A stretch of DNA of 64,000 nt, from positions 5,243 to 69,242 of the forward strand of contig JBFMCA010000002.1 of NCBI GenBank assembly GCA_040754955.1, given 5' to 3'. The translations under genes and the position numbers were made by a program. Shown here piece after piece: positions 7,281 to 58,746 of the stretch (the first letter of the stretch is position 1; every line of letters begins with the position of its first letter). The notes beneath the pieces were generated by a model. The model saw nothing but the letters and a program-made list of their open reading frames with translations. It did no database searches and was not told the DNA's origin. The DNA is from Acidobacteriota bacterium (GTDB lineage Bacteria; Acidobacteriota; Vicinamibacteria; Vicinamibacterales; UBA2999).

Positions 7281-8377
7281 CGTGTGCTCGCGGCCTCTCG
7301 GTAGACGTCGAGCGTGAGCCGCGCGGTGCGCTCCCACGTGAACTCCGCCGCGCGTGCCAGCCCGCGCGCCGACAGCGTCGCGCGGTGACGGCCGTCCTCG
7401 AGCACCGCCCTGAGCGCGTTCGCCCAGTGAGCGCCGGTCACCGGATCGACCAGCACCGCCGCATCGCCGCCGACCTCGCCGGCCGTGGCGGCGCGTGCCG
7501 CGATGACCGGCACGCCGCAGGCCATCGCCTCGAGAATCGGGAGGCCGAAGCCCTCGTAGAGCGACGGGTACACCAGAGCCATGGCGCCGCGATACGCCGC
7601 GAGCAACGTGTCTTCGTCGACGTTCCCTAGCACGCGCAGCGCTGAGTCGTGCCCCTGCGCACGGGCGAAGTCCGCCAGCGGCGCCAGCCCACCGCGGTCG
7701 ATGCCAATCAGGTGGAGCGACAGGTCCCTGAAGCGTTCGCCCTCGCGGCGCAGGAGGATGACCGCCTCGAGCGCTACCATCAGGTTGCGCCTCGGGTGGA
7801 TGTCGCCCACGTGGAGCACGTAGCGGGCGCGGTCCTCGGGCGGCGGCACGGGAGGCGGCGTGAACCGGGGCGACACGCCGAGCGGCACCACCCGGATGCG
7901 AGACGGGGGGATGCCGTAGGCGGCCGTGATCTCCGCCTTCGAGAACGCCGAGTCCGTGATGATGAGCGTCGCCGCCCGCGCGCTGGCGCGGTAGAAGGCG
8001 CGGCGCAGCGGATCGCGGCGGTGCGGGTACCAATCCGGCCGCCGCTCGTAGCTCACGTCGTGGACCGTGAGGACGATGGGCGAGACGCCGAAGGGGGGCG
8101 CGGTGTAGGCGGGCCCGTGGTAGACGTCGAGACGCGCCCGCCGCGCCGCCCGGGCGAGACCCACGGCGGTCCAGCCGAGGTTCGTGGGCGGGTGGATGGG
8201 CTCGGGACGCCGTTCGACGGCGGCCGGCCACGGGCCGCCCCCGCCGAGCGCCACGAGCTGCAACAGTCCGTCCAGCCGCAGCAGCGCGGCGACGAGCTCG
8301 CTCGTGTAACGGCGGACGCCCGCCGCGGGCGAGATGAGCGCCCGTCCGTCGATGCCGACCCGCAGCACGCGGCTCAC
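7277..8377 (-). CDS. Glycosyltransferase family 4 (GT1/group 1)
   Basis: Motifs VGIDGRAL..GVRRY, LTVHD and YPSLYEGFGLPILEAMACGVPVI. GTGA overlap at 8374-8377. Confidence 0.92.
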   Translation of the reverse strand: MSRVLRVGIDGRALISPAAGVRRYTSELVAALLRLDGLLQLVALGGGGPWPAAVERRPEPIHPPTNLGWTAVGLARAARRARLDVYHGPAYTAPPFGVSPIVLTVHDVSYERRPDWYPHRRDPLRRAFYRASARAATLIITDSAFSKAEITAAYGIPPSRIRVVPLGVSPRFTPPPVPPPEDRARYVLHVGDIHPRRNLMVALEAVILLRREGERFRDLSLHLIGIDRGGLAPLADFARAQGHDSALRVLGNVDEDTLLAAYRGAMALVYPSLYEGFGLPILEAMACGVPVIAARAATAGEVGGDAAVLVDPVTGAHWANALRAVLEDGRHRATLSARGLARAAEFTWERTARLTLDVYREAASTR

Positions 8378-10161
8378 CGCAGTTCCAGGAACAGGCGCCT
8401 GACCTCGACCCCGTGCCCGCCGCACAGCTCGCGGATCTGCGCTTCGCGGTCGGCCGAAATGGCGTTGCTGGAGATCAGCACCTCGTCGACGGACTCGGAC
8501 GCGAGCAGCCCCTCCAACGAGCCCACGTCGCCGCGCACGGGCACGCCGAGCACCACGCGCCCGGTCAGCGCCGGGTTGTCGTCGATGAATCCCAGCGTGC
8601 GCCGCGCCCAGTCCGGATTCGCGCGCATCTCGCGCACCAGCAGCTGGCCGCCGGACCCCGCGCCGTAGACGATCACGCGCTTCACTTCCTTGCGGCGCAG
8701 GTGGACGAGATCCCCCATGGCGCGGAACGACGCGCGCGTGCCGGCCACCGCGAGGAGCAGCAGCACCGCGTCGATGACGAACACGGCCCGCGAGAACCCC
8801 TGGAAGCGGTACAGGTAGGCCGCCGAGATGATCGACAGCACCGACCCCAGCAGGACGCCTCGGACGACCGCGAACAGGTCGGCCAGCCCGAACGTGTCCC
8901 ACGAGCGCGCGTAGAGACCCGACGCGTAGAGCGCTGCCAGCTTGCACCCGATCACCACGGGCAGCGACGCGGTGAAGTACGGCAGGAAGTTGTCGAGCGC
9001 CTCTCCCTCGAACCGCGTGCGGTACGCGGCGTAGTAGCAGACCGTGATCAGCACCAGGTCGAGGAGCACCTGGCCCGCGTGCCACCGGAAGGCCAGGTCC
9101 TTCAGGAACGGCGCGAATGTGGACTTCTGCAGCGCGAGGAAATCCTCGGCGTCGTACGCCGGAACGCGCGCCAGATAGATCCCGACGAGCACGACCGCGA
9201 CGGAGAAGAGACCGACGAGCGGCAGCATCTCGCGCAACCCGGCGGTGGCAACGGCATAGGCAACCAGGCCGCCCAACAGACCCACGACGTACAGGATGCG
9301 GACGGCGCTTCGCTCGGAGAAGCCCAGGGACACCAGGCGGTGCGAGAGGTGATCGGTCCCGCCTCGCGTCGCCTTCCGGCCCGCGAGCCGCCGCAGCACC
9401 AGGACGAATCCCGTATCGAACAGCGGAACCGTGAGCACCAGCGCGACGATCGCCGCGAGATGCGGCGCCGCCGCCCCGGCCTGCGGGAACGGGAGCAGGG
9501 ACGTGGACGCCAGCGACGCCCCGAGGAAGAGGCTGCCCGAATCGCCCATGAACAGCCGGGCCCGGTGCCGGTTCCAGTAGAGGAAGCCGAGCGTCGCGCC
9601 GGCCACGGCGCCGAGGAAGATCGTGATGCCGGCGCCGAGCTGCGGGCCGAGCAGGTAGGCGAGCCAGGCCGTGGCGACGAGCGCGATGCCGGCCGCGAGG
9701 CCGTCCATGTTGTCGAGCAGGTTGGTCGCGTGGACGATGCCGCCGAACCAGAGGAGCGCGACGATCGTCGCCGGCGAGGGAAGCGCGGTGTCGGTGCCCG
9801 GCGCGATCACGAACACCACCAGCGCGCCGACGATCAGCGAGGAGACCAGCTTGGCCAGGGGGGACAGCTGCAGCCGGTCGTCGAGGAGGCCGATGATGAA
9901 CATCGCCCCCGCCGAGGCCGGGACCGCCAGCTGCGCGGGCGCTGGCGCGATGCCCGTCCAGCCCCACGTGACGGCCGACGCGATCATGGCGGCCGCCGCA
10001 AAGCCGATCCCGCCCATCGTCGGCGTCGGGTTCGAGTGCCAGCGCTCCGGGCGGGGCGGCACGACGGCGCCCCCGGCGGTCGCCGCCCGCCGCACCGCGT
10101 CGCACAGGACCAGCGACAGGGCGGCGCCCAGTCCGGCGGCGACCAGGACGGCAATGAGCAC
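8374..10161 (-). CDS. Polyprenyl-phosphate HexNAc-1-phosphate transferase (WecA/MraY family) fused to a C-terminal membrane + Rossmann-like domain
   Basis: Motifs PTPTMGG, GLLDD, NLLDNMDGL, FMGDSGS and DHLSHRL. The C-terminal part has four TM-like helices, then VIVYGAGSGG..LGFIDD. Confidence 0.88.
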   Translation of the reverse strand: MLIAVLVAAGLGAALSLVLCDAVRRAATAGGAVVPPRPERWHSNPTPTMGGIGFAAAAMIASAVTWGWTGIAPAPAQLAVPASAGAMFIIGLLDDRLQLSPLAKLVSSLIVGALVVFVIAPGTDTALPSPATIVALLWFGGIVHATNLLDNMDGLAAGIALVATAWLAYLLGPQLGAGITIFLGAVAGATLGFLYWNRHRARLFMGDSGSLFLGASLASTSLLPFPQAGAAAPHLAAIVALVLTVPLFDTGFVLVLRRLAGRKATRGGTDHLSHRLVSLGFSERSAVRILYVVGLLGGLVAYAVATAGLREMLPLVGLFSVAVVLVGIYLARVPAYDAEDFLALQKSTFAPFLKDLAFRWHAGQVLLDLVLITVCYYAAYRTRFEGEALDNFLPYFTASLPVVIGCKLAALYASGLYARSWDTFGLADLFAVVRGVLLGSVLSIISAAYLYRFQGFSRAVFVIDAVLLLLAVAGTRASFRAMGDLVHLRRKEVKRVIVYGAGSGGQLLVREMRANPDWARRTLGFIDDNPALTGRVVLGVPVRGDVGSLEGLLASESVDEVLISSNAISADREAQIRELCGGHGVEVRRLFLELR

Positions 10162-10170: not shown

Positions 10171-11850
10171 CTACCGCATGTGGAACGGGGTCCCGCGCAG
10201 GATGCCGTCGCAGATGACGTCGAGCCCCGGACTTGCCCCCGGCTTCAACTGATCGAGGTTCTCGAGCCGCAGCTGGTAGATGGGATAGCCCGCCTTCGGC
10301 TCGATGAACGGCAGCGGGATCATGCGGTTGAAGAAGAAGTGGTAGGCGTAGCGCCTGGCGCGGGCGAGGCGCTCCGGGCTGAGCCGCTCGCGGAACGGCA
10401 AGCGGTCGAGCAGCCGGAAGTACTCCTCAGGCGAGGACGCGTCCCACGTGATGCCCTTGTTCCGCACCCACGCCTCCCCTGCCACAATGACCGGCAGGCC
10501 GACGCTCGACAGCTCCACGCCCATCTTGGTCCCATAGATGATGGCCGAGTCACACAACGACATGAGCGCGTACGTGCTGAGTCCGCTCTCCGGCGGAACG
10601 ACAATGACGTTCGACGGCAGGGTGGGCACGTGGCGCGCAAGCTCGCGCAGGATCGGCTGGCGGGAAACCGGGAAGCCGCTGACCTCCGCGGGGTGGACCC
10701 GGATCAGCAGCTGCAGGTCCGGCCGCGTCTCGAAGTACCGTACCGTCTGCACCAGCCAGTCCAGCATGCTCGGGAATGCGTTCGCTGGGTAATGGAGCTG
10801 TGCGTCCCAGCTCACGTTCGTGAGACAGCCGATTACCGGCTTGTCAGGCGCGAGGCCGACCTGTCCGGCGATTTCGTTCGGCGCACGCGTGTTCGGGCGG
10901 TGGAACACGATCCAATCGAAGAGCCCCTCGCGGCGGCTCGACAGATAGGACATGAGCTCGCGTTCCTGGGCCGGCTTCAACTCCTCGTCTTCCCAATGCT
11001 CCACCGGCTCGTTCATGAGCGTGTGGTGGTAGGTGTCGTCGTGGCTGAAGATGAAGCGGCGCTTGCGGTACGCGACGTTCCATGTGGAGAGGCGGACGCC
11101 CTCGCTCCGCGCCACCTCGCCGATGATGCCCCAGGGAACGTAGATGCCGTGTGTGACCGTCGCGACCTCGATGCGCTCCGTCTTGAACAAGCGGCGGGCG
11201 GCGTACGTGGTGAGCAGCGCCGACTCGACGTAGCGCCGCAGCACGGTCTCGCCCCTCGGCTCGTGCTCGATCGAGCCCGACGCGAAGAACCGCAGGGCGC
11301 CGGCCATGGCATGTTCACCGACGGCGATCCCGTCGACCTGCAGCGCGACCAGCTCCGACACCGGCAACGTGCGGGCGAGCGACGACGCGCCTGCGCGCTC
11401 CGCTGGCGTCACCCACTGGCCGTACGTATGCATCGTGATTCCGAGCTCGGCGTACACGCGCTCGGCGGGCCAGCGGCAGTCCCGGCAGAGGTCGGCCGAC
11501 GGGCCACGCCGGCCGAAGGCGTCGAGGTCGGGGTACAATGACGCGTCGCATTCTGCGCAAGCAGGCAGATCGGAATCGCAGAGCAGCGCCTGCACTTCGG
11601 CGCCCCGCAGCGTGAGCGCCACGGCGAGCACGCTCTCGAGCGTCACGGCATGCGCGTAGGCGCCAATGCTAGTGGCGAGCAGCACCTTTGGCCCTCCCTT
11701 CGCTGCGAGCCGGGCGGCATTCCATTCGGCGAGGTTGGCTGCAATCGCTCGGGACCAGTTGGGGTACGCGTCGACGCGGGCGTGATACCACCGTCGAGCG
11801 AGCCGCGACGCTCGCCACAGCACGGGGAACCGGCGGATGCCGTGTTTCAT
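10171..11850 (-). CDS. Capsule polysaccharide biosynthesis protein (KpsS/Capsule_synth-like GT-B)
   Basis: 559 aa, with motifs NVSWDAQLHY, LLIRVHPAE, STYALM and YGTKMGVELSSVGLPVIVAGEAW. Confidence 0.7.
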   Translation of the reverse strand: MKHGIRRFPVLWRASRLARRWYHARVDAYPNWSRAIAANLAEWNAARLAAKGGPKVLLATSIGAYAHAVTLESVLAVALTLRGAEVQALLCDSDLPACAECDASLYPDLDAFGRRGPSADLCRDCRWPAERVYAELGITMHTYGQWVTPAERAGASSLARTLPVSELVALQVDGIAVGEHAMAGALRFFASGSIEHEPRGETVLRRYVESALLTTYAARRLFKTERIEVATVTHGIYVPWGIIGEVARSEGVRLSTWNVAYRKRRFIFSHDDTYHHTLMNEPVEHWEDEELKPAQERELMSYLSSRREGLFDWIVFHRPNTRAPNEIAGQVGLAPDKPVIGCLTNVSWDAQLHYPANAFPSMLDWLVQTVRYFETRPDLQLLIRVHPAEVSGFPVSRQPILRELARHVPTLPSNVIVVPPESGLSTYALMSLCDSAIIYGTKMGVELSSVGLPVIVAGEAWVRNKGITWDASSPEEYFRLLDRLPFRERLSPERLARARRYAYHFFFNRMIPLPFIEPKAGYPIYQLRLENLDQLKPGASPGLDVICDGILRGTPFHMR

Positions 11851-11859
11851 CGCGGAGGA

Positions 11860-12570
11860 CTACAGCGCGGGCGCCTGCGCTCCCGCCGGAGTGTCGACGA
11901 TGCGCTCGAAGACCGAAGGCTCAGGGAGGTGGTCGAGCGCGAGCCACGCGCCGTGGCTCCGGAGATCGGCGGCGGAGTACGCGCCCGTCGCGACGGCGAT
12001 GCAGCGCGCGCCGATGGCCCGCGCGCAGGAAATGTCGTGGGGCGTGTCGCCGACCACGAACGCGTGGCCCGGCTCGATCATCGCCTCGGGGAACTTCTCG
12101 CGGACCGCCGTGAGCGCGCGCATCGCGATGCCCGCGCGGGATCCGGTGTCGGACGAGAACGATCCGCCCTCGAAGTACTGCTGGAGGCCGTAGTGGGCCA
12201 GCTTGGCGGCCGCACCGGCCGCCGTGTTCCCGGTCAGCAGCATCGAGTGCACGTCCGGGCGGCGCTCGCGCAGGTGCTGCAGGATGGCGTGCACGCCTTC
12301 GAACACGCGCCCCCGCCTGAGCGGGAGGCGCGCGGGGAGCTGCGATTCGTAGACCGCGATGAAGCGCGACACCACCGCGTCCTCAGGCGTGACGCCGGCC
12401 TGTTCCAGGATCGCCACCGCGATCTGGTGGTCGGTCAGCCCGTCGATCTTGAGCGATGCGAAGTCGAGCCCACGCCCGGTCACCTCGCGACAGGCGTCCT
12501 CAAGCGCAAAGACGCCGGCCCGTGCCGTCGTGAGCAGCGTGCCGTCGATGTCCCAGAAGACGACGATCAT
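11860..12570 (-). CDS. HAD-superfamily hydrolase (phosphatase)
   Basis: Motif I WDIDGTLL, LLTGN and VVGDTPHDI. ATGA-type overlap with the transketolase stop. Confidence 0.9.
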   Translation of the reverse strand: MIVVFWDIDGTLLTTARAGVFALEDACREVTGRGLDFASLKIDGLTDHQIAVAILEQAGVTPEDAVVSRFIAVYESQLPARLPLRRGRVFEGVHAILQHLRERRPDVHSMLLTGNTAAGAAAKLAHYGLQQYFEGGSFSSDTGSRAGIAMRALTAVREKFPEAMIEPGHAFVVGDTPHDISCARAIGARCIAVATGAYSAADLRSHGAWLALDHLPEPSVFERIVDTPAGAQAPAL

Positions 12571-14513
12571 GCTTTGCTGACGGGCACGGCGGCCTTGATC
12601 GACGCGACGAGGCCGTCGACGTCCAGCCGGTGGTAGCGCAGCACCTCGTCGTTGGTGCCGCACTCCGGCAGCTCCTCGACGCCCAGGCGCGTCACGTGGG
12701 CCGCCGGCGACAGACCCAGCCGCGCGATGGCTGACGCGATCATGTCGCCCTGCCCGCCGTGCACGTAGTGGTTGTCGAGCGTGATGATCTGCCTCGTCGT
12801 CCCGATCGTCTCGCGCAGCCACGCTTCGTCGATCCGGTTGAGCCACGGCAGGTTCACGATGCGGAGCGCGATGCCCTCGCCCGCCAGGCGATCGGCCGCC
12901 TCGAACGCGTTCGCGAGCAGCCACGGCCCGTAGCCGAACACCACGGCATCGCTGCCCTCGCGGAGGGTGACGCCGCGTCCCGCCACCGCCGTGTACCCGG
13001 CCGGCAGGCTGAAGGGCACGGGCCAGCCGAGCGAGACCAGGCGCAGGTACGCGCTCTCGTCGGTGCCGTTCACCATGAAGTCCACCAGCGCGTGGACCTC
13101 CTGCTCGGTGCAGGGCTCGGCCAGGATCAGCTTCGGCACCGACCCGAGCGCCGAGATGTCGCGGACCGACTGGTGCGAGTGCCCGGGGCCGCCCGGCAGC
13201 AGGCCCGCGAGCGATCCGACGTAGATCACCTTGGACGACTCGCTGCACTGGTTGTAGATCTGCTCGTTCGGGCGCGCGGCCAGGAAGCACGCGAAGGAAT
13301 GGGCGATCGGCAGCACGCCACGGCGCGCCATGCCGCACGCCATCGACACCATGTCCTGCTCCGCGATCCCGCACTCGACGAACCGCTCCGGGAACTTCGC
13401 GCGGAAGTCGACCAGGCCACAGTCCTTCACGAGGTCCGCGTCGAGCACCACGATCTTCTGGTGCTTCTCGGACTGCGCGATGAGCGCCTGCGTGTAAGCA
13501 GACACCAAGCGTTCGACCTTGAGCACGGGCTTGCGCGGTGGGCGCTGGCCGGACTGCAGCTTCACCGCACCGAGGCCGGCGGTCGCGAACAGGCGGTTCG
13601 CCTCGGCGATCAGCTCTCTCGATCCGCGCGCGTACTCGTCCTCGTTCGGCGCGCCCGAATGGTAGTTGTAGAGCTCGCCGGGCTCGAGCGCAGAGCCCTC
13701 CATGAAAGACACGCCCTTGCCCTTCACCGTGTCGGCGATGACGATCTTGGGTCTGTCGGTGACCGACGCGAGCCGGCGAAAGACCGCTGCGATGGCCGCC
13801 ATGTCGTGGCCATCCACGCGCTCCACATGCCAGCCGAACGCCGTCAGTTTGGCCTCGAGGTTCCCGAGATCGTTCACCTCGTGCACCCAGGTGTCCGACT
13901 GGATCTTGTTGTGGTCGACGATGGCCGTGATCTCGTGCAGGCCCATGTTCGCCGCCGACGGGAGCGACTCCCAGACCTGGCCCTCGTGCAGCTCGCCGTC
14001 GCCGGTGAGGACGAAGACCCTGGCGTCCTTTTTCAGCAGACGGTTGGCGAGCACCATGCCCTTGGCTTTGGAAATCCCCATGCCCAGCGAGCCCGTGTTC
14101 GCCTGGACGTACGGTGTCTCCACGTGCGGGTGCCCAGGGAGGCCACGCAAACGCCGCAGTTGGTGGATCTTGTCCTCCTCCATCAGACCCATCCCGATGA
14201 GCGTGGTGTAGAGCGCCGGCGAATCGTGGCCCTTCGACGAGAAGAAGATGTCGCATTGCGTCGGCCCCTTGTCGAGGTTCCGCAGCTCACGCAGGAACAG
14301 CCAGGTCATGATCTCGACGGAGCTGAAGCTCGTGCCGATGTGGCCCGACCACGCCCGCGCGATCATGTAGAGCGTGTTCAGGCGCGATAGAGCCGCGAAG
14401 GCTTGCGCCTCCATGATCGGGTCGAGGCTGGCTGCTCGGAGCCGCTGGTACTCGCTCAGCGGGGCATAGAAGAGTTCATCGGAGGTGACGACGTCGAGTT
14501 GCTGTTCACCCAT
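12567..14513 (-). CDS. Transketolase-like TPP enzyme (N- and C-terminal halves fused)
   Basis: Motifs SGHIGTSFS, SKGH, LPGHP, TGSLGMG, GDGELHEGQVWE..DHN, ECGIAEQDM, GHSHQ and YLRL. Confidence 0.9.
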   Translation of the reverse strand: MGEQQLDVVTSDELFYAPLSEYQRLRAASLDPIMEAQAFAALSRLNTLYMIARAWSGHIGTSFSSVEIMTWLFLRELRNLDKGPTQCDIFFSSKGHDSPALYTTLIGMGLMEEDKIHQLRRLRGLPGHPHVETPYVQANTGSLGMGISKAKGMVLANRLLKKDARVFVLTGDGELHEGQVWESLPSAANMGLHEITAIVDHNKIQSDTWVHEVNDLGNLEAKLTAFGWHVERVDGHDMAAIAAVFRRLASVTDRPKIVIADTVKGKGVSFMEGSALEPGELYNYHSGAPNEDEYARGSRELIAEANRLFATAGLGAVKLQSGQRPPRKPVLKVERLVSAYTQALIAQSEKHQKIVVLDADLVKDCGLVDFRAKFPERFVECGIAEQDMVSMACGMARRGVLPIAHSFACFLAARPNEQIYNQCSESSKVIYVGSLAGLLPGGPGHSHQSVRDISALGSVPKLILAEPCTEQEVHALVDFMVNGTDESAYLRLVSLGWPVPFSLPAGYTAVAGRGVTLREGSDAVVFGYGPWLLANAFEAADRLAGEGIALRIVNLPWLNRIDEAWLRETIGTTRQIITLDNHYVHGGQGDMIASAIARLGLSPAAHVTRLGVEELPECGTNDEVLRYHRLDVDGLVASIKAAVPVSKA

Positions 14514-14551
14514 GATCGGTAGCCGGTCGCCAGTAAATCGGAAGTCAGCAG

Positions 14552-15322
14552 TCAGGAATCCGCCCGCTGCCAGGGCACCTGCGGCACGTGCGGTAGCCGC
14601 GCTGCGCCGCTCTCGAGCAAATGCTCGGCGAGGAGCCAGTCGAACTTGTCGTTGATGTCGAAGCCTTCCATCTCGTCGGTCAGGAAGGGCACGAGCGTTT
14701 CCCCAGCGATGGTACGGCCCTGGAAGACGATGCGCGACCAGGCGATCTCCAGGCTGGCGTTCTGGACGTACACGAGGGGCAGGGACTGGTACTGGCTGCT
14801 GTGCCAGGGTTGCTCTTCCGGCCCGAACGGCAGGAGCGGGAGCAGACGTTGGCCACGGATGACCCACATCTTGCCGGGATGCTGCGTGCACTTCTCCACG
14901 GCGCGCAGCGAATCGACGCCGGGGCTTCCAATGAAGGTCTGCCAGGCCCGGCGGAGCGTCTCCGGCGTGCGGAACGGGCTCGTGGGCCGAAGCAGCGAGA
15001 ACGCATCGAAGGCCCGGCCCTCGTCCCGCAGCCGGCCGAGCGTGTATTCCACCCACTCGATGTCGGGGCTCGTGTCGCCCGCCATCTCGGCCGGCCGGAG
15101 GAACGGCACCTCGGCACCGTAATGCCTGGCGATCTCGGCCACCTCGTCGGAATCGGTGGAGACGATCACCGTGTCGAAGATGCCGCTCTCGATCGCGGGT
15201 GCAATCGTGTACGCGACCATCGGGTGCCCGCCGAGCACGCGGATGTTCTTCCCGGGCACCCGCTTGGAGCCCATGCGCGCGGGGATGAGCGCCACCACCC
15301 TAGTCGTGTTGGTGTTCGACAC
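14552..15322 (-). CDS. neuA: CMP-ulosonate (acylneuraminate) cytidylyltransferase, copy 1
   Basis: Motifs IPARMGSKRVPGKN, VSTDS, LLRPTSPFR, YVQNAS and DIND. Confidence 0.9.
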   Translation of the reverse strand: MSNTNTTRVVALIPARMGSKRVPGKNIRVLGGHPMVAYTIAPAIESGIFDTVIVSTDSDEVAEIARHYGAEVPFLRPAEMAGDTSPDIEWVEYTLGRLRDEGRAFDAFSLLRPTSPFRTPETLRRAWQTFIGSPGVDSLRAVEKCTQHPGKMWVIRGQRLLPLLPFGPEEQPWHSSQYQSLPLVYVQNASLEIAWSRIVFQGRTIAGETLVPFLTDEMEGFDINDKFDWLLAEHLLESGAARLPHVPQVPWQRADS

Positions 15323-15339
15323 GATCGCGCCCGCGCCTC

Positions 15340-16812
15340 CTAGACCGCCCCCGGGTTGTGCGCGATGTACACCGTCTTCCAGTCGGAGTACACGTCGAGC
15401 GCCTCGGTGCCGGCCTCCCGCCAGCCGTTGCCCGACTGCCGCAGACCGCCGAAGGGCATGTGCGGCTCGCTGCCGTAGGTGCCGCCGTTGATGCTTGCAA
15501 CACCCGCCTTGATGCGGGTGACGAATGTCATCGCGCGATGGATGTTCCGCGTGTGGATCGCGGCGGTCAGCCCGAACGGCGAGTCGTCCGCGATTTGCAT
15601 CGCGTCTTCGAAGCCCTTGACTCGGTAAAGGCACGTAATGGGCCCGAAGAGCTCGCTCCGCGTGATCTCCGCCTCGGGCGCCGCGTTCTCCAGGATGGTT
15701 GGGGCGACGTAGTAGCCGTCCTTGTGCGCCGCATCCGTCAGGCGAGCGCCTCCGGCGAGCACGGTCACGCCCTCGGCCCTGGCCCGATCGACGGCCGCGA
15801 GCATCTGCTCGAGCTGCCCCTCGTTGATGACCGGCCCGTAGAAGTCGTCATCGCCGTTGCCGACCTTGAGCGCCTTCGCGGCTGCGACGAAGCGCGACTT
15901 GAACTCGTCGTAGACCGCGTCGAACACGAGGATGCGGCTTCCGGATGCGCAGCGCTGGCCGGCGTTGCTGAACGCGGACCCGAGCGCCCACTGCACGGCG
16001 AGGTCCAGGTCGGCGTCGTCGCAAACGATGAACGGGTTCTTGCCACCGAGCTCGAGGCAGACCTTCGCCATGCGGCGGCCGCACATGGCGGCGATCCAGC
16101 GACCGACGTCGCACGAGCCGGTGAAGCTGACAACCGCGACGTCCGGGTGCTCGACGATCGGCGCCCCCGCTTCATCGCCGAAGCCATGTACCGTGTTGTA
16201 GACGCCCGCGGGCAGGCCGGCTTCCTGCGCGAGCACGTGCCATGCCCACGCGGTGGCGGGCGTGTCCTCCGAGGCCTTCATGATGGCCGCGTTGCCGCAC
16301 AGCAGCGCGGGGAACGCCTTCCAGGCGACGTTCGCGATGGGCGTGTTCGCGGCGATGATGAGCCCCGCGATCCCGAGCGGCTGGCGGATGGTCATGGCCG
16401 TGCGGTTCGGCATCGCGCTCGTCGTCGTCCGCCCGTAGAAGCGGCGGCCTTCGCCGGCGACGAAGAAGCCCATCTCGATGGCCGCATCGGTTTCGCCGAG
16501 CGCATCCTTCTTCGACTTGCCGGTCTCGCGCGCCACAATGGCCGCCAGCTCGTCGCGGTGCTGCTGCATCAGCTGCGCTATTCTCCGCAGGACGTTGCCG
16601 CGCTCGACGACGGTCTTCGTCGCCCACGCGGGCTGCGCCGCCTTCGCGGCGGCGATGGCGGCCTCGATGTCCGCCGTGCGCGAGCGGGCGACGTCGCACA
16701 CCTTGCGGCCATTCGACGGATCGAGTTTCGGAAACGTCTCGCCGCCCGCGGCGGGGCGATCCTCGCCGTTGATCTGGTTCGGGAGTACAGCCGGAATGGT
16801 CAGGTCAGCCAT
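15340..16812 (-). CDS. NAD(P)-dependent aldehyde dehydrogenase
   Basis: Motifs FTGS, LELGGKNP, NAGQRCAS, ELFGP and PFGGLRQSGNG. Confidence 0.95.
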   Translation of the reverse strand: MADLTIPAVLPNQINGEDRPAAGGETFPKLDPSNGRKVCDVARSRTADIEAAIAAAKAAQPAWATKTVVERGNVLRRIAQLMQQHRDELAAIVARETGKSKKDALGETDAAIEMGFFVAGEGRRFYGRTTTSAMPNRTAMTIRQPLGIAGLIIAANTPIANVAWKAFPALLCGNAAIMKASEDTPATAWAWHVLAQEAGLPAGVYNTVHGFGDEAGAPIVEHPDVAVVSFTGSCDVGRWIAAMCGRRMAKVCLELGGKNPFIVCDDADLDLAVQWALGSAFSNAGQRCASGSRILVFDAVYDEFKSRFVAAAKALKVGNGDDDFYGPVINEGQLEQMLAAVDRARAEGVTVLAGGARLTDAAHKDGYYVAPTILENAAPEAEITRSELFGPITCLYRVKGFEDAMQIADDSPFGLTAAIHTRNIHRAMTFVTRIKAGVASINGGTYGSEPHMPFGGLRQSGNGWREAGTEALDVYSDWKTVYIAHNPGAV

Positions 16813-16853
16813 GAGGTCTTTGAACGTGGAACTCTCCCACTTGTCACTGGCAC

Positions 16854-16873
16854 CGCGGGGCTGAAGCCCCGCG
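16854..16873. repeat. REP-like palindrome (CGCGGGGCT-GA-AGCCCCGCG)
   Basis: Perfect 9-bp inverted repeat with a 2-nt centre, 11 nt downstream of the SDR stop in the intergenic gap. No U-tract. Confidence 0.6.
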
Positions 16874-16884
16874 ATCCGGCGCGT

Positions 16885-17697
16885 TTACCAGGCCGTGAAC
16901 CCGCCGTCCACTCGCAGCTCCTGGCCGGTGACGTAGGATGAGGCCTTCGACGCGAGGAAGACGAGCGGGCCGACGAGATCGGCGGCCTCGGCCATCCGGC
17001 CGAGCGGGACGCGCTCAGCAAACTTGCGCTTGAACTCCGGATCCTGGCCGCCCAGGACGCCGCCGGGCGACAGCGTGTTCACGCGCACGCCGTGCTTGCC
17101 CCACAGCGTGGCGAAGAACTTTGTCATCTGCACGACGGCCGCCTTCGACGCGCCGTACGACGGCACCTTCAGGAACGGCGGATCGCCGGGAAAGTGATCG
17201 TAGAAGCGCATGTCGGGGGACACCGACGCGTACAGCGAGCCGATGTTCACGATCGACCCGCGCCCCTGCCCCACCATGGCGCCGCCGAACACCTGGATGA
17301 CCTGAAACGTCCCCGTGAGGTTCACCTCCACCATCCGGCGGAAGAGGTCGACGGGCATGTTCTGCACGAGGAAACGGCCCGTGCCCTTGTCGGGAGGCTG
17401 GTCGATGCCGGCGTTGTTCACCAGCACCGTCGGCGCGCCGAGTTCGGCCGCGATGCGGTCGCGAGCACCCTCGATCGCCGCGCGATCGGTGACGTCGCAG
17501 TCGTACGAGCGAAGCCGCCCAGCGTCGCGCCGCGCCTGCACGGCAGCGAACCCGGCCGATGGTTCAGCGCCAGGCCGATCCAGCCCGGCGACGGCAGCGC
17601 CGGCGTCGAGCAGGGCCTCGATCCAGATCGGACCGAGCTTGCCCTTGGCGCCCGTGACAACGGCGACTTCGCCCGCCAGCGAGAATGGCCCGGTCAC
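16885..17697 (-). CDS. Short-chain dehydrogenase/reductase (SDR)
   Basis: Motifs VTGAKGKLG, LVNNAG, VNIGS, YGASKAA and RVNTLSPGG. Confidence 0.93.
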   Translation of the reverse strand: MTGPFSLAGEVAVVTGAKGKLGPIWIEALLDAGAAVAGLDRPGAEPSAGFAAVQARRDAGRLRSYDCDVTDRAAIEGARDRIAAELGAPTVLVNNAGIDQPPDKGTGRFLVQNMPVDLFRRMVEVNLTGTFQVIQVFGGAMVGQGRGSIVNIGSLYASVSPDMRFYDHFPGDPPFLKVPSYGASKAAVVQMTKFFATLWGKHGVRVNTLSPGGVLGGQDPEFKRKFAERVPLGRMAEAADLVGPLVFLASKASSYVTGQELRVDGGFTAW

Positions 17698-18767
17698 TTC
17701 CGGGCCAGCTCCGGCGCGGGCTTCAGGATCTGGAACGTGATCTCATCGTCCTCGTTGACGGGCTGCACGAGGCTCTGGCCGACCACGTTGTCCAACTCGT
17801 ACGGCGGCAAGCCGTCGCCCGGCGACTTGAGGGCGAGGTCGGCCACGGTGAGGATGTGGCCGGCGGGCAGCGCCCGTGCGGCCACGATCTTCTTGCCCAT
17901 CTTCAGGATCGGGCTCGCTTCGCTCGGGTAGATTTTCTTCTGTCCGTCGCCGAGCGCGACGCGCGTGCGCTCCAGATCGCGGACCATCTTGCGCATGCCG
18001 ACGGGTTCGAGCGAAAAGGCGTGGTCGGTGCCGCGCCAGGCCCGGTTCAGCGTGAAGTGCTTCTCGACGATGCGGCTGCCGAGGACGTAGGCGGCCACCG
18101 CCATGGCGATGCCGTTGTCGTGGCCCGAGAAGCCGACGACCGTTTCCGGAAACAGGTCGCGGTAGGTTGAGATCACGCGGAGGTCGAGCAGCTCGTACTC
18201 GCAGGGATACCCTGCGGTGCACTGCAGGATCGCCAGCTGCGGATTGAGCTCGCGCACCGTGTCGTGGGCGCGCCTCACGTCATCCAACGTAGCGCCACCT
18301 GTGCTGACGATCATAGGCTTGCCAAACTTCGCGACGTGTTTGAGCAGCGGCGTGTTCTTGAGGTCCCCAGACGCAATCTTGTACGCCGGCATGCCGAGGT
18401 TCTCGAGAAAGTCGGCGCTGTGGAAGTCGAAGGCCGTGGCGAAGAAGTCGACGCCCAGCTCCTTGCAGTACTGCTGGAGTTCGCGGTACTCCGTCTCGCC
18501 AAACTCGAGCGCCTCGCGGTGCGCGCCGTAGGTCGGGCCGTAGCTGTTCTCGTTCTCATACGGCTTGTCGTACGAGGCCTTGGTGTAGAGCGACTTGTTG
18601 TGACGCTTCTGCAGCTTGACGGCGTGGACGCCGGCCTCCTTGGCAGCCTTGAAGAGCTCCATGCAGGTCTTCAGGCTGCCCTGGTGGTTGTGGCCGACCT
18701 CGGCGATGACGTAGCAGCTCGAGTCGTCGCCGATGGTGTGCGAGCCGATGGTGAGTGTGCGTGCCAA
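17694..18767 (-). CDS. neuB: NeuB-family ulosonate synthase, 9-phosphate-synthase-like clade
   Basis: Motifs IAEVGHNHQG, VKLQKR, SYGPTYGAHREALEF, YKIASGD, STG, QCTAGYP and EKHFTL, plus a C-terminal SAF/AFP domain (KSPGDG). Confidence 0.92.
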   Translation of the reverse strand: MARTLTIGSHTIGDDSSCYVIAEVGHNHQGSLKTCMELFKAAKEAGVHAVKLQKRHNKSLYTKASYDKPYENENSYGPTYGAHREALEFGETEYRELQQYCKELGVDFFATAFDFHSADFLENLGMPAYKIASGDLKNTPLLKHVAKFGKPMIVSTGGATLDDVRRAHDTVRELNPQLAILQCTAGYPCEYELLDLRVISTYRDLFPETVVGFSGHDNGIAMAVAAYVLGSRIVEKHFTLNRAWRGTDHAFSLEPVGMRKMVRDLERTRVALGDGQKKIYPSEASPILKMGKKIVAARALPAGHILTVADLALKSPGDGLPPYELDNVVGQSLVQPVNEDDEITFQILKPAPELARK

Positions 18768-18777: not shown

Positions 18778-19701
18778 CTATGCCAGGGCGACTGGCTTGA
18801 TCTGTAGAACCAGCTGGTCCCACCCGTACCGGCTGTGCGCCACGTCGCGCGCGGCCCTCCCGATGGACACCAGCCTATCGATGTCCGGCAGCTGGTCGAG
18901 GCGATTGATGTCGAGGACGGTCTTCAGGTGCTCGTAGCCTGCGGGTGAGTATTCATCGAGGTTCGTCAGCACCGCACAGCCGCACTCCATCGCGGCGTTC
19001 ACCGTCGTGTTGTTTGCACGCAGGCCTTTCTCGAAGAAGGCCGCGAGGAAGGTCGCATCGAGCAAATGGTTGTAGACCGCCGTGTCGGACAGATACCCCA
19101 TGAAGTAGACCCGTCCGTCGAAGATCTCCGACAGCTCCTCGAACCGCACGATGAAAGACTCGTCGAAGCTCGTGCCCTCGTGAAGCGCGGTCGAGACGAA
19201 CACCTTGAAGGTCTTCCCGGTGCCTTCGAGCAGGTCCTTCAGCTTCCGGTAGTACGGCACCCGGATCTTGTGCGCCATGCCGAAGGTGAACACCTGCAGC
19301 TCGGTCTGCTGCACGCGGTGGGGCGTGAGGATCGTGCCGGGACAGAACAGCTCGACGATGTCGGGCCGGGCGTCGCGCAACGACTCGAACAGCTCGCGGT
19401 TCCCACAGAAGACGTTGGCGGCGTTCCTGATGAGACGGAGCTCCACCTCGGTCCCGTCGACGGCGTGCAGGAACAGCTCGTACTGCCCGGCACGCTCCCG
19501 GGCCCATTCGTCGAGGAAGTGGACGTGCTGGGGCTCGAACTCGGAGAGCTTCAGCGACAGCAGGGGCCGGCGGGGAGACTCTGCCGGAAGGTTCGTGATG
19601 CCGACCACCGGGAGCCCGAGATGCTTGGCGAGGATCTGGTTGAACTTGGCGATGCCGCAGGTCCACGGGTTGAGGTGATACCCGGCGATACAGTCGATCA
19701 T
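18778..19701 (-). CDS. Hypothetical protein, probable compact GT-B glycosyltransferase
   Basis: CGIAKFN near the N-terminus, FTFG, FMGYLSD and NTTVNAAMECGCAVLTN (GT4-like C-terminal motif). Confidence 0.55.
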   Translation of the reverse strand: MIDCIAGYHLNPWTCGIAKFNQILAKHLGLPVVGITNLPAESPRRPLLSLKLSEFEPQHVHFLDEWARERAGQYELFLHAVDGTEVELRLIRNAANVFCGNRELFESLRDARPDIVELFCPGTILTPHRVQQTELQVFTFGMAHKIRVPYYRKLKDLLEGTGKTFKVFVSTALHEGTSFDESFIVRFEELSEIFDGRVYFMGYLSDTAVYNHLLDATFLAAFFEKGLRANNTTVNAAMECGCAVLTNLDEYSPAGYEHLKTVLDINRLDQLPDIDRLVSIGRAARDVAHSRYGWDQLVLQIKPVALA

Positions 19702-50553: not shown

Positions 50554-50560
50554 GTTCTGA

Positions 50561-54735: not shown

Positions 54736-54746
54736 TCGTTCGCGGA

Positions 54747-58744: not shown

Positions 58745-58746
58745 GC

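What the first reader, a model, noticed from the sequence alone, without database searches (positions are those of the whole stretch)
10171..18767. Candidate undescribed ulosonic/ulosaric-acid pathway: synthase - SDR - ALDH - CMP-synthetase - transketolase - HAD phosphatase - KpsS-like transferase
Seen: seven contiguous co-directional genes in this order, with no sugar epimerase or aminotransferase inside the block. Established: NeuB enzymes condense PEP with an aldose(-phosphate). HAD phosphatases remove the terminal phosphate in KDN/Neu5Ac-9-P routes. NeuA activates with CTP, and KpsS-type GT-B enzymes transfer CMP-ulosonates. Transketolase, SDR and ALDH are not part of the Neu/Leg/Pse/KDN pathways I know. 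Inference: the dedicated transketolase supplies a non-standard aldose phosphate. After condensation and dephosphorylation, SDR + ALDH oxidise the terminal CH2OH to COOH, giving a dicarboxylic 3-deoxy-ulosaric acid (Dha-like). Alternatively the product is a chain-extended or branched ulosonate.
Basis: partly seen in the sequence, partly recalled or inferred. Interest (0 to 1): 0.85.

Follow-up and report, generated by a model that had tools for sequence, protein, structure and literature searches.

The report
Sugar-acid cassette with a dedicated transketolase
A soil acidobacterium carries a tightly packed gene set, shared with bacteria of many phyla, that most likely makes an undescribed acidic surface sugar using a specialised transketolase that may clip the sugar's tail.

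Summary
Seven intact, co-directional, almost gapless genes lie at 10171-18767 on the minus strand: NeuB-type synthase, SDR, ALDH, CMP-transferase, transketolase-like, HAD and a KpsS/KpsC-like GT-B. They sit inside a longer glycan operon.

All seven genes keep this order in 16 of 22 relatives' loci. The core NeuB-SDR-ALDH-NeuA-TKT recurs in 21 of 36 well-flanked loci from about nine phyla.

The transketolase belongs to a separate clade (support 0.997). It keeps the cofactor and donor-side residues. It has replaced the positions that are Ser/His/Asp/Arg in all 22 canonical transketolases aligned, and the genome has a canonical copy elsewhere. In other phyla a KdsC-type ulosonate-phosphate phosphatase takes the place of the window's HAD.

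My reading, which is inferred: the ulosonate phosphate is dephosphorylated, the SDR oxidises the penultimate hydroxyl, the transketolase removes the terminal two carbons, and the ALDH makes a carboxylate. The product would be a CMP-activated ulosaric acid two carbons shorter than the synthase product.

Its role for the transketolase, as a supplier of aldose phosphate, is not supported. I found no publication on this cassette. No biochemistry exists.

The parts
17694..18767 (-). NeuB-type PEP:aldose(-phosphate) condensing synthase (357 aa, NeuB + SAF domains)
   Evidence: Pfam PF03102 266.8 bits and PF08666. NCBIfam NeuB_NnaB 298.2 bits, below its cut-off of 399.65. Closest solved chains are SpsE 1vli and N. 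meningitidis NeuB. 55-81% identical orthologues sit next to the cassette transketolase in other phyla.
16885..17697 (-). Classical SDR, probably NAD-dependent; proposed oxidase of the penultimate hydroxyl
   Evidence: Pfam adh_short_C2 139 bits. Best named NCBIfam hits are D-mannonate oxidoreductase, glucose 1-dehydrogenase, gluconate 5-dehydrogenase and KduD, all below their cut-offs. Catalytic Tyr181 is kept in 51 of 51 orthologues. An acidic residue at the end of strand 2 is kept in 50 of 51.
15340..16812 (-). Aldehyde dehydrogenase (490 aa)
   Evidence: Pfam PF00171 508.8 bits. Best NCBIfam hits are alpha-ketoglutaric semialdehyde dehydrogenase (427.8 bits) and 2,5-dioxovalerate dehydrogenase, both below their cut-offs. 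Catalytic Glu254 and Cys288 are kept in 53 of 53 orthologues.
14552..15322 (-). CMP-ulosonate synthetase (NeuA/PseF/KdsB type)
   Evidence: Pfam CTP_transf_3 79.9 bits. NCBIfam PseF 137.4 bits, below its cut-off of 205.7. GTG start at 15322 behind AGGAGG.
12567..14513 (-). Transketolase-like ThDP enzyme of a separate, cassette-linked clade (648 aa)
   Evidence: Three transketolase domains. NCBIfam PRK05899.2-5 406.8 bits, below its cut-off of 488. Closest solved chain is human transketolase 4kxu. Signature at positions 360/431/439/490 against canonical Ser/His/Asp/Arg. Monophyletic clade, support 0.997.
11860..12570 (-). HAD-superfamily phosphatase (generic HAD/HAD_2 matches; 236 aa)
   Evidence: Pfam Hydrolase, HAD_2 and Hydrolase_like. 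Only weak phosphoglycolate-phosphatase-like NCBIfam hits. Replaced by a KdsC/YrbI-type phosphatase in 16 other loci, never together with it. Its start overlaps the transketolase stop by 4 nt.
10171..11850 (-). KpsS/KpsC-like GT-B transferase (559 aa)
   Evidence: Pfam Capsule_synth 20.5 bits against a cut-off of 20. No PDB match by sequence. AlphaFold2 model with mean pLDDT 87.8. Best Foldseek hit is KpsC beta-Kdo transferase 6mgb (E 1.2e-7, TM 0.59 on the target); 6mgc, 6mgd, 8fuw and WbbB 5fa1 are also listed. His386-Pro387 is invariant in 18 orthologues.
18778..19701 (-). orf307, a conserved protein of no known family directly upstream of NeuB
   Evidence: No Pfam or NCBIfam family. 64-79% identical and syntenic in the closer relatives' loci; 37-41% identical copies lie near the cassette in Actinomycetota and Verrucomicrobiota loci.
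19698..22493 (-). orf931, founder of a paralogous GT-B family (8 copies in the window)
   Evidence: No Pfam family. Weak NCBIfam hit to BFO_1060-family glycosyltransferase, E 4.9e-6. Paralogues found. Core model pLDDT 84.2. Generic GT-B fold matches. Invariant His-Pro pair. Homologues lie near the cassette in 18 of 36 loci.
8374..10161 (-). Polyprenyl-phosphate sugar-phosphate transferase (Glycos_transf_4) joined to a CoA_binding_3 domain
   Evidence: Pfam. NCBIfam WecA/MraY and EPS_sugtrans partial hits. Syntenic in relatives.
7277..8380 (-). GT4-family glycosyltransferase
   Evidence: Pfam Glycos_transf_1 and Glyco_transf_4. Syntenic in relatives.

Best explanation
The block is one biosynthetic and transfer operon for a CMP-activated, modified 3-deoxy-2-ulosonic acid that ends up in a lipid-linked surface glycan. 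Every catalytic step below is inferred; none was assayed. (1) The NeuB-type synthase condenses PEP with a phosphorylated aldose from central metabolism, most simply a hexose 6-phosphate such as mannose 6-phosphate. The product is an ulosonate with a terminal phosphate. (2) The HAD phosphatase removes that phosphate and frees the terminal CH2OH. (3) The NAD-type SDR oxidises the penultimate hydroxyl, creating a HOCH2-C(=O)-CHOH- end, which is the motif of a transketolase donor. (4) The transketolase-like enzyme removes the terminal two-carbon unit and leaves an aldehyde. Its cofactor and donor half-site are intact and its distal pocket is rebuilt. (5) The ALDH oxidises the aldehyde to a carboxylate, giving a 3-deoxy-2-ulosaric acid two carbons shorter than the synthase product. 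A C9 precursor would give a heptulosaric acid with the constitution of Dha; the stereochemistry is unknown. (6) The NeuA-type enzyme activates it with CTP. (7) The KpsS/KpsC-like GT-B, and perhaps the orf931-family GT-B, transfers it to a glycan started by the WecA-like enzyme.
For: One pathway. All seven genes keep the same order in 16 of 22 relatives' loci. The transketolase orthologue is present in 21 of 24 genera of the family. NeuB, SDR, ALDH and NeuA all lie within 10 kb of the cassette transketolase in 17 of 19 relatives' loci and in 21 of 36 loci from other genomes. Those other genomes are titled Acidobacteriota, Alpha-, Gamma- and 'Delta'-proteobacteria, Verrucomicrobiota, Melainabacteria, Actinomycetota, Phycisphaerales, Gemmatimonadales and Elusimicrobia. 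An unsupervised clustering of neighbouring ORFs found no further recurrent core enzyme, only general glycan genes. That fits a substrate taken from central metabolism.

Phosphorylated intermediate. In 16 loci a protein of about 180 aa lies in the cassette, mostly between NeuB and SDR. It matches KdsC (106-118 bits) and Kdn-9-phosphate phosphatase (84-96 bits), both below their cut-offs. One of these loci is from a relative that lacks the window-type HAD. No locus has both types.

Transketolase. His54, His92, Arg116, His124, Asp168, Asn198, His281, Glu381, His443 and Arg487 are kept in every row in which the position is aligned, and Lys260 in all 78 cassette-type rows. Position 360 is Asp in 76 of 78 cassette-type sequences and Ser (20) or Ala (2) in the 22 canonical ones. 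Position 431 is Leu, Tyr or Phe in 75 of 78 (never His) against His in 22 of 22. Position 439 is Pro in 78 of 78 against Asp in 22 of 22. Position 490 is Ser, Ile, Asn or Thr (never Arg) against Arg in 22 of 22. These map to Ser345, His416, Asp424 and Arg474 of human transketolase, which are listed among the residues around the xylulose-5-phosphate-ThDP adduct (PMC8016368 passages). The clade is monophyletic with support 0.997 and a stem of 0.92 substitutions per site. G000 has its own canonical transketolase. Five other carriers each have a canonical long transketolase.

SDR and ALDH. The best named SDR relatives are mannonate oxidoreductase, gluconate 5-dehydrogenase and KduD. From my knowledge of these enzymes, they oxidise the hydroxyl next to the terminal CH2OH of sugar acids. 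The best ALDH relatives oxidise the terminal aldehyde of a 2-oxo-3-deoxy acid. Catalytic residues are conserved. In a second cassette type the three genes lie in the order SDR-TKT-ALDH.

Precedent. The sequence dehydrogenase, 5-keto-D-gluconate, transketolase cleavage, tartaric semialdehyde, semialdehyde dehydrogenase has been proposed for tartrate (PMC7970118 passages; PMC12016104 abstract start).

Transfer. The KpsC-like fold and the invariant His-Pro pair.
Against: No enzyme of the cassette has been assayed, and no glycan of a carrier is known to me. Genome data do not fix the order of steps. All equivalog-level NCBIfam cut-offs are missed, so substrate names taken from the best hits are weak. 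Similarity among SDRs and among ALDHs is a poor guide to substrate.

The cassette is not invariant. 15 of 36 well-flanked loci lack at least one of the four partners within 10 kb by my thresholds. L079 has no ALDH, L070 no SDR, and L063 and L084 have only NeuB next to the transketolase. Five loci (L042, L064, L065, L068, L075) show the transketolase alone. The second cassette type (L031, L032, L054) has no NeuB within 10 kb; in two of these draft genomes the NeuB homologues lie on other contigs. In 22 of 36 loci neither phosphatase type was found.

A transketolase needs an acceptor for the two-carbon unit. The rebuilt pocket may bind the usual phosphorylated acceptors poorly, and I cannot say what takes the unit. 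The phosphate-binding role of the four replaced residues is recalled from the transketolase literature; the paper I read only lists them as adduct-surrounding residues. The alignment around human His258 and Arg318 is ambiguous.
Confidence: 0.42

Rival explanations
1. The transketolase makes an unusual aldose phosphate for the synthase. After condensation and dephosphorylation, SDR and ALDH oxidise the terminal CH2OH directly to COOH. The product is an ulosaric acid of unchanged chain length.
For: It uses all seven genes. The phosphatase evidence fits it equally well. The ALDH is intact. From recall, a terminal oxidation of Kdo is known in the Kdo8N pathway of Shewanella.
Against: An aldose phosphate product would occupy the canonical phosphate site. 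That site is replaced at the Ser, His and Arg positions in nearly all cassette-type sequences. A canonical transketolase exists in the same genome. The SDR's best named relatives act on secondary hydroxyls (their reactions are recalled).
Confidence: 0.13
2. SDR and transketolase act before the synthase on an unphosphorylated sugar acid or ketose. An example is gluconate to 5-keto-gluconate to tartaric semialdehyde. The synthase then condenses that aldehyde with PEP, which also gives a heptulosaric acid. The ALDH removes glycolaldehyde or serves a side step.
For: NeuB and the transketolase are the tightest pair in some loci: L063 and L084 have NeuB-TKT, L050 and L087 have NeuB, SDR and TKT without ALDH. 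In Micromonospora rosaria, NeuB-SDR-TKT sits with an aminotransferase and a Zn-ADH inside an NRPS cluster, with no NeuA or ALDH. The tartrate precedent applies directly. Loss of the phosphate site also fits an unphosphorylated substrate.
Against: The KdsC/YrbI-type phosphatase next to NeuB points to a phosphorylated synthase product. The ALDH, present in 27 of 36 loci, would compete for the synthase's substrate or be reduced to a detoxifying role.
Confidence: 0.17
3. The synthase, phosphatase and CMP-transferase make an ordinary Kdn-like acid. SDR, ALDH and transketolase build a separate substituent, for example a glycolyl or glyceroyl group, or serve unrelated metabolism and are merely linked.
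For: NeuB, phosphatase and NeuA alone form a complete Kdn-type pathway (recalled for Bacteroides thetaiotaomicron; a model named for its Kdn-9-phosphate phosphatase appears). FkbM-type methyltransferases recur nearby, so decoration does happen. From recall, transketolase-family enzymes supply glycolyl units in some natural-product pathways.
Against: No acyl- or glycolyl-transferase, carrier protein or ligase is conserved in the cassette. The five genes stay contiguous across about nine phyla, which is hard to square with unrelated functions.
Confidence: 0.1
4. The transketolase-like enzyme works as a carboligase, like DXS or an acyloin-forming enzyme. It adds a two-carbon unit to an aldehyde made by the SDR, giving a chain-extended or branched ulosonate.
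For: The enzyme scores weakly against DXS models (TIGR00204, 166.6 bits). The rebuilt pocket would also allow a new acceptor.
Against: The ALDH would have no substrate. The enzyme is much closer to transketolase than to DXS (406.8 against 166.6 bits). The usual two-carbon donors are phosphorylated and would need the lost site.
Confidence: 0.06

Closest known systems
Kdn pathway of Bacteroides thetaiotaomicron: Kdn-9-phosphate synthase, Kdn-9-phosphate phosphatase, CMP-Kdn synthetase (recalled; a model for the phosphatase appears)
   Same: A NeuB-type synthase, a phosphatase and a CTP_transf_3 cytidylyltransferase, with no epimerase or aminotransferase needed.
   Different: The cassette adds SDR, ALDH and a dedicated transketolase, none of which belongs to the Kdn route. 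The window's phosphatase is not of the KdsC/YrbI type. NeuB and NeuA miss all equivalog cut-offs.
Proposed tartrate route: dehydrogenase, 5-keto-D-gluconate, transketolase cleavage, tartaric semialdehyde, semialdehyde dehydrogenase (PMC7970118 passages)
   Same: The same three-step logic: oxidise the hydroxyl next to the terminal CH2OH of a sugar acid, remove two carbons with a transketolase, oxidise the new aldehyde to a carboxylate.
   Different: In that route the transketolase is thought to be a housekeeping enzyme working promiscuously, and the route is unproven in plants. Here a dedicated, remodelled transketolase is linked to an ulosonate synthase and a CMP-transferase.
Canonical transketolase (EC 2.2.1.1), short human or split type
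   Same: Three domains, the ThDP and metal motif, the cofactor-activating Glu and the donor-side His, Arg and Lys residues.
   Different: The Ser, His, Asp and Arg positions of the distal pocket are replaced. The clade is separate and co-exists with a canonical copy.
KpsC/KpsS/WbbB beta-Kdo transferases
   Same: GT-B fold with KpsC as the best structural match, a borderline Capsule_synth hit and an invariant His-Pro pair.
   Different: 12-14% identity, TM 0.59 on the target only, and about 200 extra residues. No sequence-level PDB match. Donor and linkage are unknown.
Kdo8N pathway of Shewanella (KdnB oxidises C8 of Kdo, KdnA transaminates; recalled, not checked in a call)
   Same: Tailoring of the tail end of an ulosonic acid by oxidation.
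   Different: Different enzyme families, no chain shortening, an amine rather than an acid as the result.
Sulfoquinovose transketolase pathway (recalled, not checked in a call)
   Same: A specialised transketolase that clips two carbons from an unphosphorylated, anionic ketose.
   Different: It is catabolic and not linked to NeuB or NeuA. I did not compare sequences.

Membership tests
NeuB family (PEP-condensing ulosonate synthases) | NeuB TIM-barrel domain followed by a SAF/antifreeze-like domain | tested here: met
   PF03102 266.8 bits, covering 3-241 of 241 profile positions; PF08666 34.1 bits.
N-acetylneuraminate synthase or pseudaminate synthase (equivalogs) | Score above the curated NCBIfam cut-off | tested here: not met
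   TIGR03569 298.2 against 399.65; TIGR03586 226.1 against 340.25.
CMP-ulosonate synthetases (CTP_transf_3) | CTP_transf_3 domain | tested here: met
   PF02348 79.9 bits. The PseF equivalog is not met: 137.4 against 205.7.
Transketolase EC 2.2.1.1 | Three domains, the GDG...N ThDP/metal motif and the cofactor-activating Glu | tested here: met
   Asp168, Asn198 and Glu381 are kept in all 100 aligned sequences.
Transketolase EC 2.2.1.1 | Donor-side catalytic residues (human His37, His77, Arg100/101, His110, Lys244, His258) | tested here: met
   His54, His92, Arg116, His124, Lys260 and His281 are kept in all cassette-type sequences. The pairwise alignment at His258 is ambiguous, but His281 is invariant.
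Transketolase EC 2.2.1.1 | Distal-pocket residues around the sugar phosphate (human Ser345, His416, Asp424, Arg474) | tested here: not met
   Asp360, Leu431, Pro439 and Ser490 in the window. No cassette-type sequence has His, Asp or Arg at the last three positions, against 22 of 22 canonical ones. Residue list from PMC8016368.
Transketolase EC 2.2.1.1 | Score above the curated NCBIfam cut-off of any transketolase model | tested here: not met
   Best is NF004559, 406.8 against 488.
KdsC/YrbI ulosonate-phosphate phosphatases | Small HAD-IIIA protein of about 180 aa matching KdsC models | tested here: not met
   The window's HAD (236 aa) gives only weak phosphoglycolate-phosphatase-type hits. The KdsC type is found in 16 other loci instead. 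The role is inferred from this replacement, not from membership.
KpsS/KpsC (Capsule_synth) beta-Kdo transferases | Capsule_synth domain above threshold | tested here: inconclusive
   20.5 bits against a cut-off of 20, E 3.8e-4, covering only residues 357-473.
KpsS/KpsC (Capsule_synth) beta-Kdo transferases | GT-B fold resembling KpsC or WbbB, with a His-Pro motif | tested here: met
   Foldseek rank 1 is 6mgb, with 6mgc, 6mgd, 8fuw and 5fa1 also listed. His386-Pro387 is invariant. That the His-Pro motif is a family hallmark is recalled.
KpsS/KpsC (Capsule_synth) beta-Kdo transferases | Transfer of a CMP-activated ulosonate | not testable with these tools
   Needs an enzyme assay.
Dha (3-deoxy-D-lyxo-hept-2-ulosaric acid) biosynthesis | A known enzyme set or a demonstrated product | not testable with these tools
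   No enzymes are known. Reviews list the Dha pathway and its activated form as unidentified (PMC3355719 and PMC12168206 passages).

The most novel reading that the evidence does not exclude
This is the first genetic handle on ulosaric-acid biosynthesis. A widespread bacterial cassette builds a sialic-acid-like C9 acid. A remodelled transketolase then cuts off its last two carbons and the stump is oxidised, giving a CMP-activated heptulosaric acid of the Dha type. Side-chain clipping by a transketolase would be a new kind of sugar tailoring. It would also give plant and algal biologists a concrete chemical route to test for Dha.
Probability: 0.35. Interest if true: 0.85.

Novelty: new variant of a known kind. 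Interest (0 to 1): 0.72.

Why it matters
CMP-ulosonate pathways (Kdo, Kdn, Neu, Pse, Leg) are well mapped. None of them, as far as I know or could find, contains a transketolase.

Here a dedicated transketolase clade with a rebuilt substrate pocket is welded to a NeuB/NeuA pair together with an SDR and an ALDH. The combination occurs in about nine phyla, most of them uncultured soil and water bacteria. More than 100 protein clusters at 67% identity or above exist for the transketolase alone. A common acidic surface sugar of environmental bacteria is therefore probably still undescribed.

If the product is an ulosaric acid, the cassette offers a testable route for a sugar class whose biosynthesis is listed as unknown in plant cell-wall reviews from 2012 and 2025. 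The enzyme would also be of interest as a biocatalyst that cleaves unphosphorylated, acidic ketoses.

Tried and rejected
Literature. Nine full-text searches bore on the cassette or its product class. None gave a paper on a NeuB-transketolase cassette. One search was swamped by surnames beginning 'Neub'. The two candidates mention transketolase only as a pentose-phosphate enzyme. One search, meant to confirm the E. coli phosphate-site residues, found nothing, so that role rests on recall. Subscription journals and supplements were not searchable.

Expression. No RNA holder was listed for the stretch, so no reads were laid.

ESM Atlas. orf931 gave only sub-threshold leads, namely Acidobacteriota hypotheticals, some with an FkbM domain. 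The transketolase gave only generic bacterial transketolase clusters.

Database names for the transketolase are all generic.

PDB sequence searches for the ALDH and the SDR gave no substrate-informative relatives. The KpsS-like protein has no PDB match by sequence. BLASTP between it and orf931 is not significant (E 0.057).

GC3-based gene calling did not separate sense from antisense frames in this 68% GC DNA. I used ORFs together with domain hits instead.

Considered and rejected:
- The cassette transketolase as the housekeeping enzyme. Canonical copies co-exist with it.
- A chance gene neighbourhood. The synteny rules this out.
- The HAD as an unrelated gene. The two phosphatase types replace each other.

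Full report
WHAT IS THERE

The window has 64-72% GC per 2-kb stretch. By the titles of its closest public relatives it belongs to the Vicinamibacterales, Acidobacteriota. On the minus strand a chain of genes runs from 22493 down to 7277 with overlaps or gaps of at most 72 nt:
- orf931 (19698-22493)
- orf307 (18778-19701)
- NeuB-type synthase (17694-18767)
- SDR (16885-17697)
- ALDH (15340-16812)
- CTP_transf_3 cytidylyltransferase (14552-15322)
- transketolase-like protein (12567-14513)
- HAD hydrolase (11860-12570)
- a 559-aa protein with a borderline Capsule_synth hit (10171-11850)
- a Glycos_transf_4 phosphotransferase joined to a CoA_binding_3 domain (8374-10161)
- a GT4 glycosyltransferase (7277-8380)

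Pfam and NCBIfam support these names. Where I checked, they keep their catalytic motifs.

One qualification applies. 'No epimerase or aminotransferase' is true of the block but not of the surroundings. The same window holds a second module of NeuB, Epimerase_2, methyltransferase and NeuA (31275-35095). It also holds a third set of formyltransferase, deacetylase, Epimerase_2 and NeuA (41944-45536).

IS IT ONE UNIT?

I searched 40 related genomes with the transketolase. A full-length orthologue (51-70% identity, E of 1e-214 or lower) is present in 21 of 24 genera of the same family, and in 1 of 16 other families of the order. I fetched about 20 kb around these 22 places and laid the window's proteins on them.
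- 16 of 22 loci have all seven genes in the window's order, mostly with orf307, the WecA-like gene and the GT4 gene as well, at 48-74% amino-acid identity.
- Two loci are cut by contig ends.
- One lacks NeuB at that place.
- One has a different phosphatase.
- Two carry a second cassette type, described below.

A scan of one genome per species, using a profile of six orthologues, returned 80 loci. Of these, 57 (L033-L089) carry a transketolase of 38% identity or more, and 23 (L090-L112) carry ordinary short transketolases of 29-35% identity.

Among the 36 loci of the first group with at least 8 kb on both sides:
- 21 have NeuB, SDR, ALDH and NeuA homologues within the flanks, nearly always in the order NeuB-SDR-ALDH-NeuA-TKT.
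- Singly, NeuA is present in 28, ALDH in 27, SDR in 26 and NeuB in 25 (at 45% identity or above).
- orf931 homologues occur in 18, the KpsS-like gene in 6, and the window-type HAD in 3.

The 21 complete loci bear titles from Acidobacteriota, Alpha-, Gamma- and 'Delta'-proteobacteria, Verrucomicrobiota, Melainabacteria, Actinomycetota, Phycisphaerales, Gemmatimonadales and Elusimicrobia.

The conserved core is five genes. HAD and the KpsS-like gene are lineage-specific additions.

THE PHOSPHATASE

In Melainabacteria and Methylobacter loci, a gene of about 180 aa lies between NeuB and SDR. It matches KdsC (106-118 bits), the YrbI family, and Kdn-9-phosphate phosphatase (84-96 bits). These scores are below the curated cut-offs but have E-values of 1e-23 to 1e-34.

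tblastn finds this gene in 16 loci. One of them is L030, from a relative that lacks the window-type HAD. No locus has both types.

The solved members of this small-HAD family that I know of act on terminally phosphorylated ulosonates. I therefore read the two HADs as alternative solutions for one step, the dephosphorylation of the synthase product. It also implies that the synthase takes an aldose phosphate.

An unsupervised clustering of all other ORFs in the 57 loci found no further recurrent core enzyme. It found only epimerase/dehydratases, GT2 and GT4 transferases, ABC-2 transporters, FkbM methyltransferases and DegT aminotransferases, each in 18 loci or fewer. The aldose phosphate therefore probably comes from central metabolism.

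THE TRANSKETOLASE

Its closest solved relative is human transketolase (217 bits over the full length). A quantum-chemical study lists the residues around the xylulose-5-phosphate-ThDP adduct as His37, Arg100, His110, Lys244, His258, Arg318, Ser345, Glu366, His416, Asp424, Gln428 and Arg474 (PMC8016368, passages only).

I aligned 100 sequences: the window, 98 loci and the genome's own paralogue.
- The cofactor motif and the donor-side positions (window His54, His92, Arg116, His124, Asp168, Asn198, His281, Glu381, His443, Arg487) are the same in every row in which they are aligned. Lys260 is kept in all 78 cassette-type rows.
- Four distal positions split the set cleanly, as follows.

Window position | Human residue | 22 canonical sequences | 78 cassette-type sequences
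360 | Ser345 | Ser in 20, Ala in 2 | Asp in 76
431 | His416 | His in 22 | Leu, Tyr or Phe in 75; never His
439 | Asp424 | Asp in 22 | Pro in 78
490 | Arg474 | Arg in 22 | Ser, Ile, Asn or Thr; never Arg

The usual G-E-D-G motif reads G/A-G-P-G-H/K in the cassette-type sequences.

The 78 form one clade with support 0.997 on a stem of 0.92 substitutions per site (FastTree). The genome has a canonical paralogue on contig C129 and a split transketolase just outside the window. Five other carriers each have a canonical long transketolase as well.

From recall, the Ser, His and two Arg residues bind the substrate's phosphate, and the Asp binds the hydroxyl two carbons from the keto group. I could not confirm this in an open paper.

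The plain reading is that the enzyme still handles a HOCH2-C(=O)-CHOH- donor end, but that the rest of its substrate is not an ordinary sugar phosphate.

A MECHANISM THAT USES EVERY GENE

The SDR has an acidic residue at the end of strand 2 in 50 of 51 orthologues. From recall of the SDR classification, this marks NAD preference and hence an oxidative role.

Its best named relatives are D-mannonate oxidoreductase, gluconate 5-dehydrogenase and KduD. As far as I know, these oxidise the hydroxyl next to the terminal CH2OH of sugar acids, and KduD does so on a 3-deoxy-2-ulosonic acid. That oxidation creates exactly the end group a transketolase cleaves.

Cleavage leaves an aldehyde. The ALDH's best relatives, alpha-ketoglutaric semialdehyde and 2,5-dioxovalerate dehydrogenases, oxidise the terminal aldehyde of a 2-oxo-3-deoxy acid. 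All these best-hit scores are below the curated cut-offs, so they are hints only.

The same three-step logic has been proposed for tartrate: 5-keto-D-gluconate, transketolase cleavage, tartaric semialdehyde, semialdehyde dehydrogenase (PMC7970118, passages). An engineered transketolase is reported to make tartaric semialdehyde (PMC12016104, abstract start in the listing).

The phosphatase step then has a second reason: a transketolase donor needs a free terminal hydroxymethyl group.

In the second cassette type (L031, L032, L054) the three genes lie in the order SDR-TKT-ALDH. They sit beside a 2-hydroxyacid dehydrogenase, an Epimerase_2 and a CTP_transf_3 gene.

By my own reading of textbook configurations, an 8-keto derivative of Kdn would have the D-threo arrangement that transketolase donors need. 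The carbon that normally offers a hydroxyl to the lost Asp would carry the ring oxygen. This is inference only.

The predicted product from a C9 precursor is a 3-deoxy-hept-2-ulosaric acid. That is the constitution of Dha; the stereochemistry cannot be told.

WHAT SPEAKS AGAINST IT

Nothing has been assayed. Genome data do not give the order of steps.

The cassette varies:
- 15 of the 36 well-flanked loci lack at least one partner by my thresholds.
- L079 has no ALDH and L070 has no SDR.
- L063 and L084 have only NeuB beside the transketolase.
- L042, L064, L065, L068 and L075 show the transketolase alone. In L064 (Melioribacteraceae) the neighbours I checked have no link to glycan synthesis.
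- In 22 of the 36 loci neither phosphatase type was found.

In Micromonospora rosaria, NeuB-SDR-TKT lies with an RraA-like protein, a class IV aminotransferase and a Zn-ADH inside an NRPS cluster, without NeuA or ALDH. This shows that the trio can feed other chemistry. It fits the rival in which SDR and transketolase act before the synthase equally well.

In the second cassette type no NeuB lies within 10 kb. In two of these draft genomes the NeuB homologues are on other contigs.

I also cannot name the acceptor of the two-carbon unit.

THE TRANSFERASES

The 559-aa protein has only a threshold-level Capsule_synth match and no PDB match by sequence. An AlphaFold2 model from 18 orthologues (pLDDT 87.8) has KpsC beta-Kdo transferase as its best Foldseek hit: 6mgb, E 1.2e-7, TM 0.59 on the target, 292 columns. 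Other KpsC entries and WbbB are also listed, among many generic GT-B enzymes with poorer superposition. His386-Pro387 is invariant. 'KpsS/KpsC-like GT-B' is a fair description; membership is not shown.

orf931 has seven paralogues in the window. Its conserved core folds as a generic GT-B with an invariant His-Pro pair. Its homologues accompany the cassette more often than the KpsS-like gene does (18 against 6 of 36 loci). It may be the more general partner transferase.

IS IT KNOWN?

Sources name the transketolase only 'transketolase' or 'transketolase C-terminal domain-containing protein'. Searches for papers combining ulosonic or nonulosonic acid, NeuB or sialic acid synthase with transketolase gave nothing relevant.

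Two reviews of rhamnogalacturonan II, from 2012 and 2025, list the pathway and the activated form of Dha as unidentified (PMC3355719 and PMC12168206, passages).

Only open-access text was searched. Supplements were closed, so a description elsewhere cannot be excluded.

VERDICT

- As a class it is a new variant of the known CMP-ulosonate pathways.
- I give about 0.85 to 'one pathway for a modified CMP-ulosonate'.
- I give about 0.4 to the specific tail-clipping mechanism.
- I give about 0.35 to the boldest reading, that this is the first route to a Dha-type ulosaric acid.

Noticed in passing
window 31275-35095 (minus strand): A second ulosonate module: NeuB paralogue (34049-35095, 30% identical to the first), Epimerase_2/NeuC-like (32898-34052), methyltransferase (31976-32920) and a second CTP_transf_3 gene (31275-32078).
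   Followed up: partly
window 41944-45536 (minus strand): A third set: formyltransferase-like (44721-45536), polysaccharide deacetylase (43783-44922), Epimerase_2 (42636-43790) and a third CTP_transf_3 gene (41944-42636). The window may therefore encode three different activated acidic sugars.
   Followed up: no
window 19698-22493, 35092-37707, 37704-40340, 40337-41947, 48283-50640, 51577-54924 (two copies) and about 57195-58862: Eight paralogues of a large protein family with no Pfam domain (33-40% identical over a core of about 460 aa). The core has a generic GT-B fold and an invariant His-Pro pair. It is probably a family of transferases for the activated acids.
   Followed up: partly
window 22576-29005: Further glycan genes upstream: a small CTP_transf_like cytidylyltransferase (22576-23043), an MBOAT O-acyltransferase (24087-25631) and an NAD-dependent epimerase/dehydratase (27857-29005). 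Several ORFs between them have no family.
   Followed up: no
L011:5513-6640, and the same gap in some other relatives: Some relatives have an extra ORF of about 375 aa, with no Pfam or NCBIfam family, between SDR and ALDH. The window has only 72 nt there. It may be an accessory tailoring enzyme.
   Followed up: partly
L087:1-21872 (Micromonospora rosaria DSM 803): NeuB, SDR and a cassette-type transketolase lie with an RraA-like protein, a class IV aminotransferase and a Zn-ADH inside an NRPS cluster, together with a LuxR regulator, an A-PCP-C protein and a 2397-aa ORF. This suggests the trio also builds an unusual amino-acid precursor.
   Followed up: partly
L031, L032, L054: A second cassette type: 2-hydroxyacid dehydrogenase, epimerase/dehydratase, SDR, transketolase, ALDH, Epimerase_2, CTP_transf_3. 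No NeuB lies within 10 kb.
   Followed up: partly
G000 contig C2:76261-77942 (just beyond the window's end) and C129:8810-10606: The genome also has a split transketolase (N and C parts as separate ORFs) and a canonical single-chain short transketolase with a human-like G-E-D-G-P-S-Q motif.
   Followed up: partly
window 8374-10161: An unusual fusion: a WecA/MraY-type Glycos_transf_4 domain followed by the CoA_binding_3 domain, which is typical of the N-terminal part of WbaP/EPS sugar transferases.
   Followed up: no
L047:12469-15330: In a Melainabacteria locus, a 953-aa protein with an animal haem peroxidase domain lies directly after the cassette transketolase.
   Followed up: no
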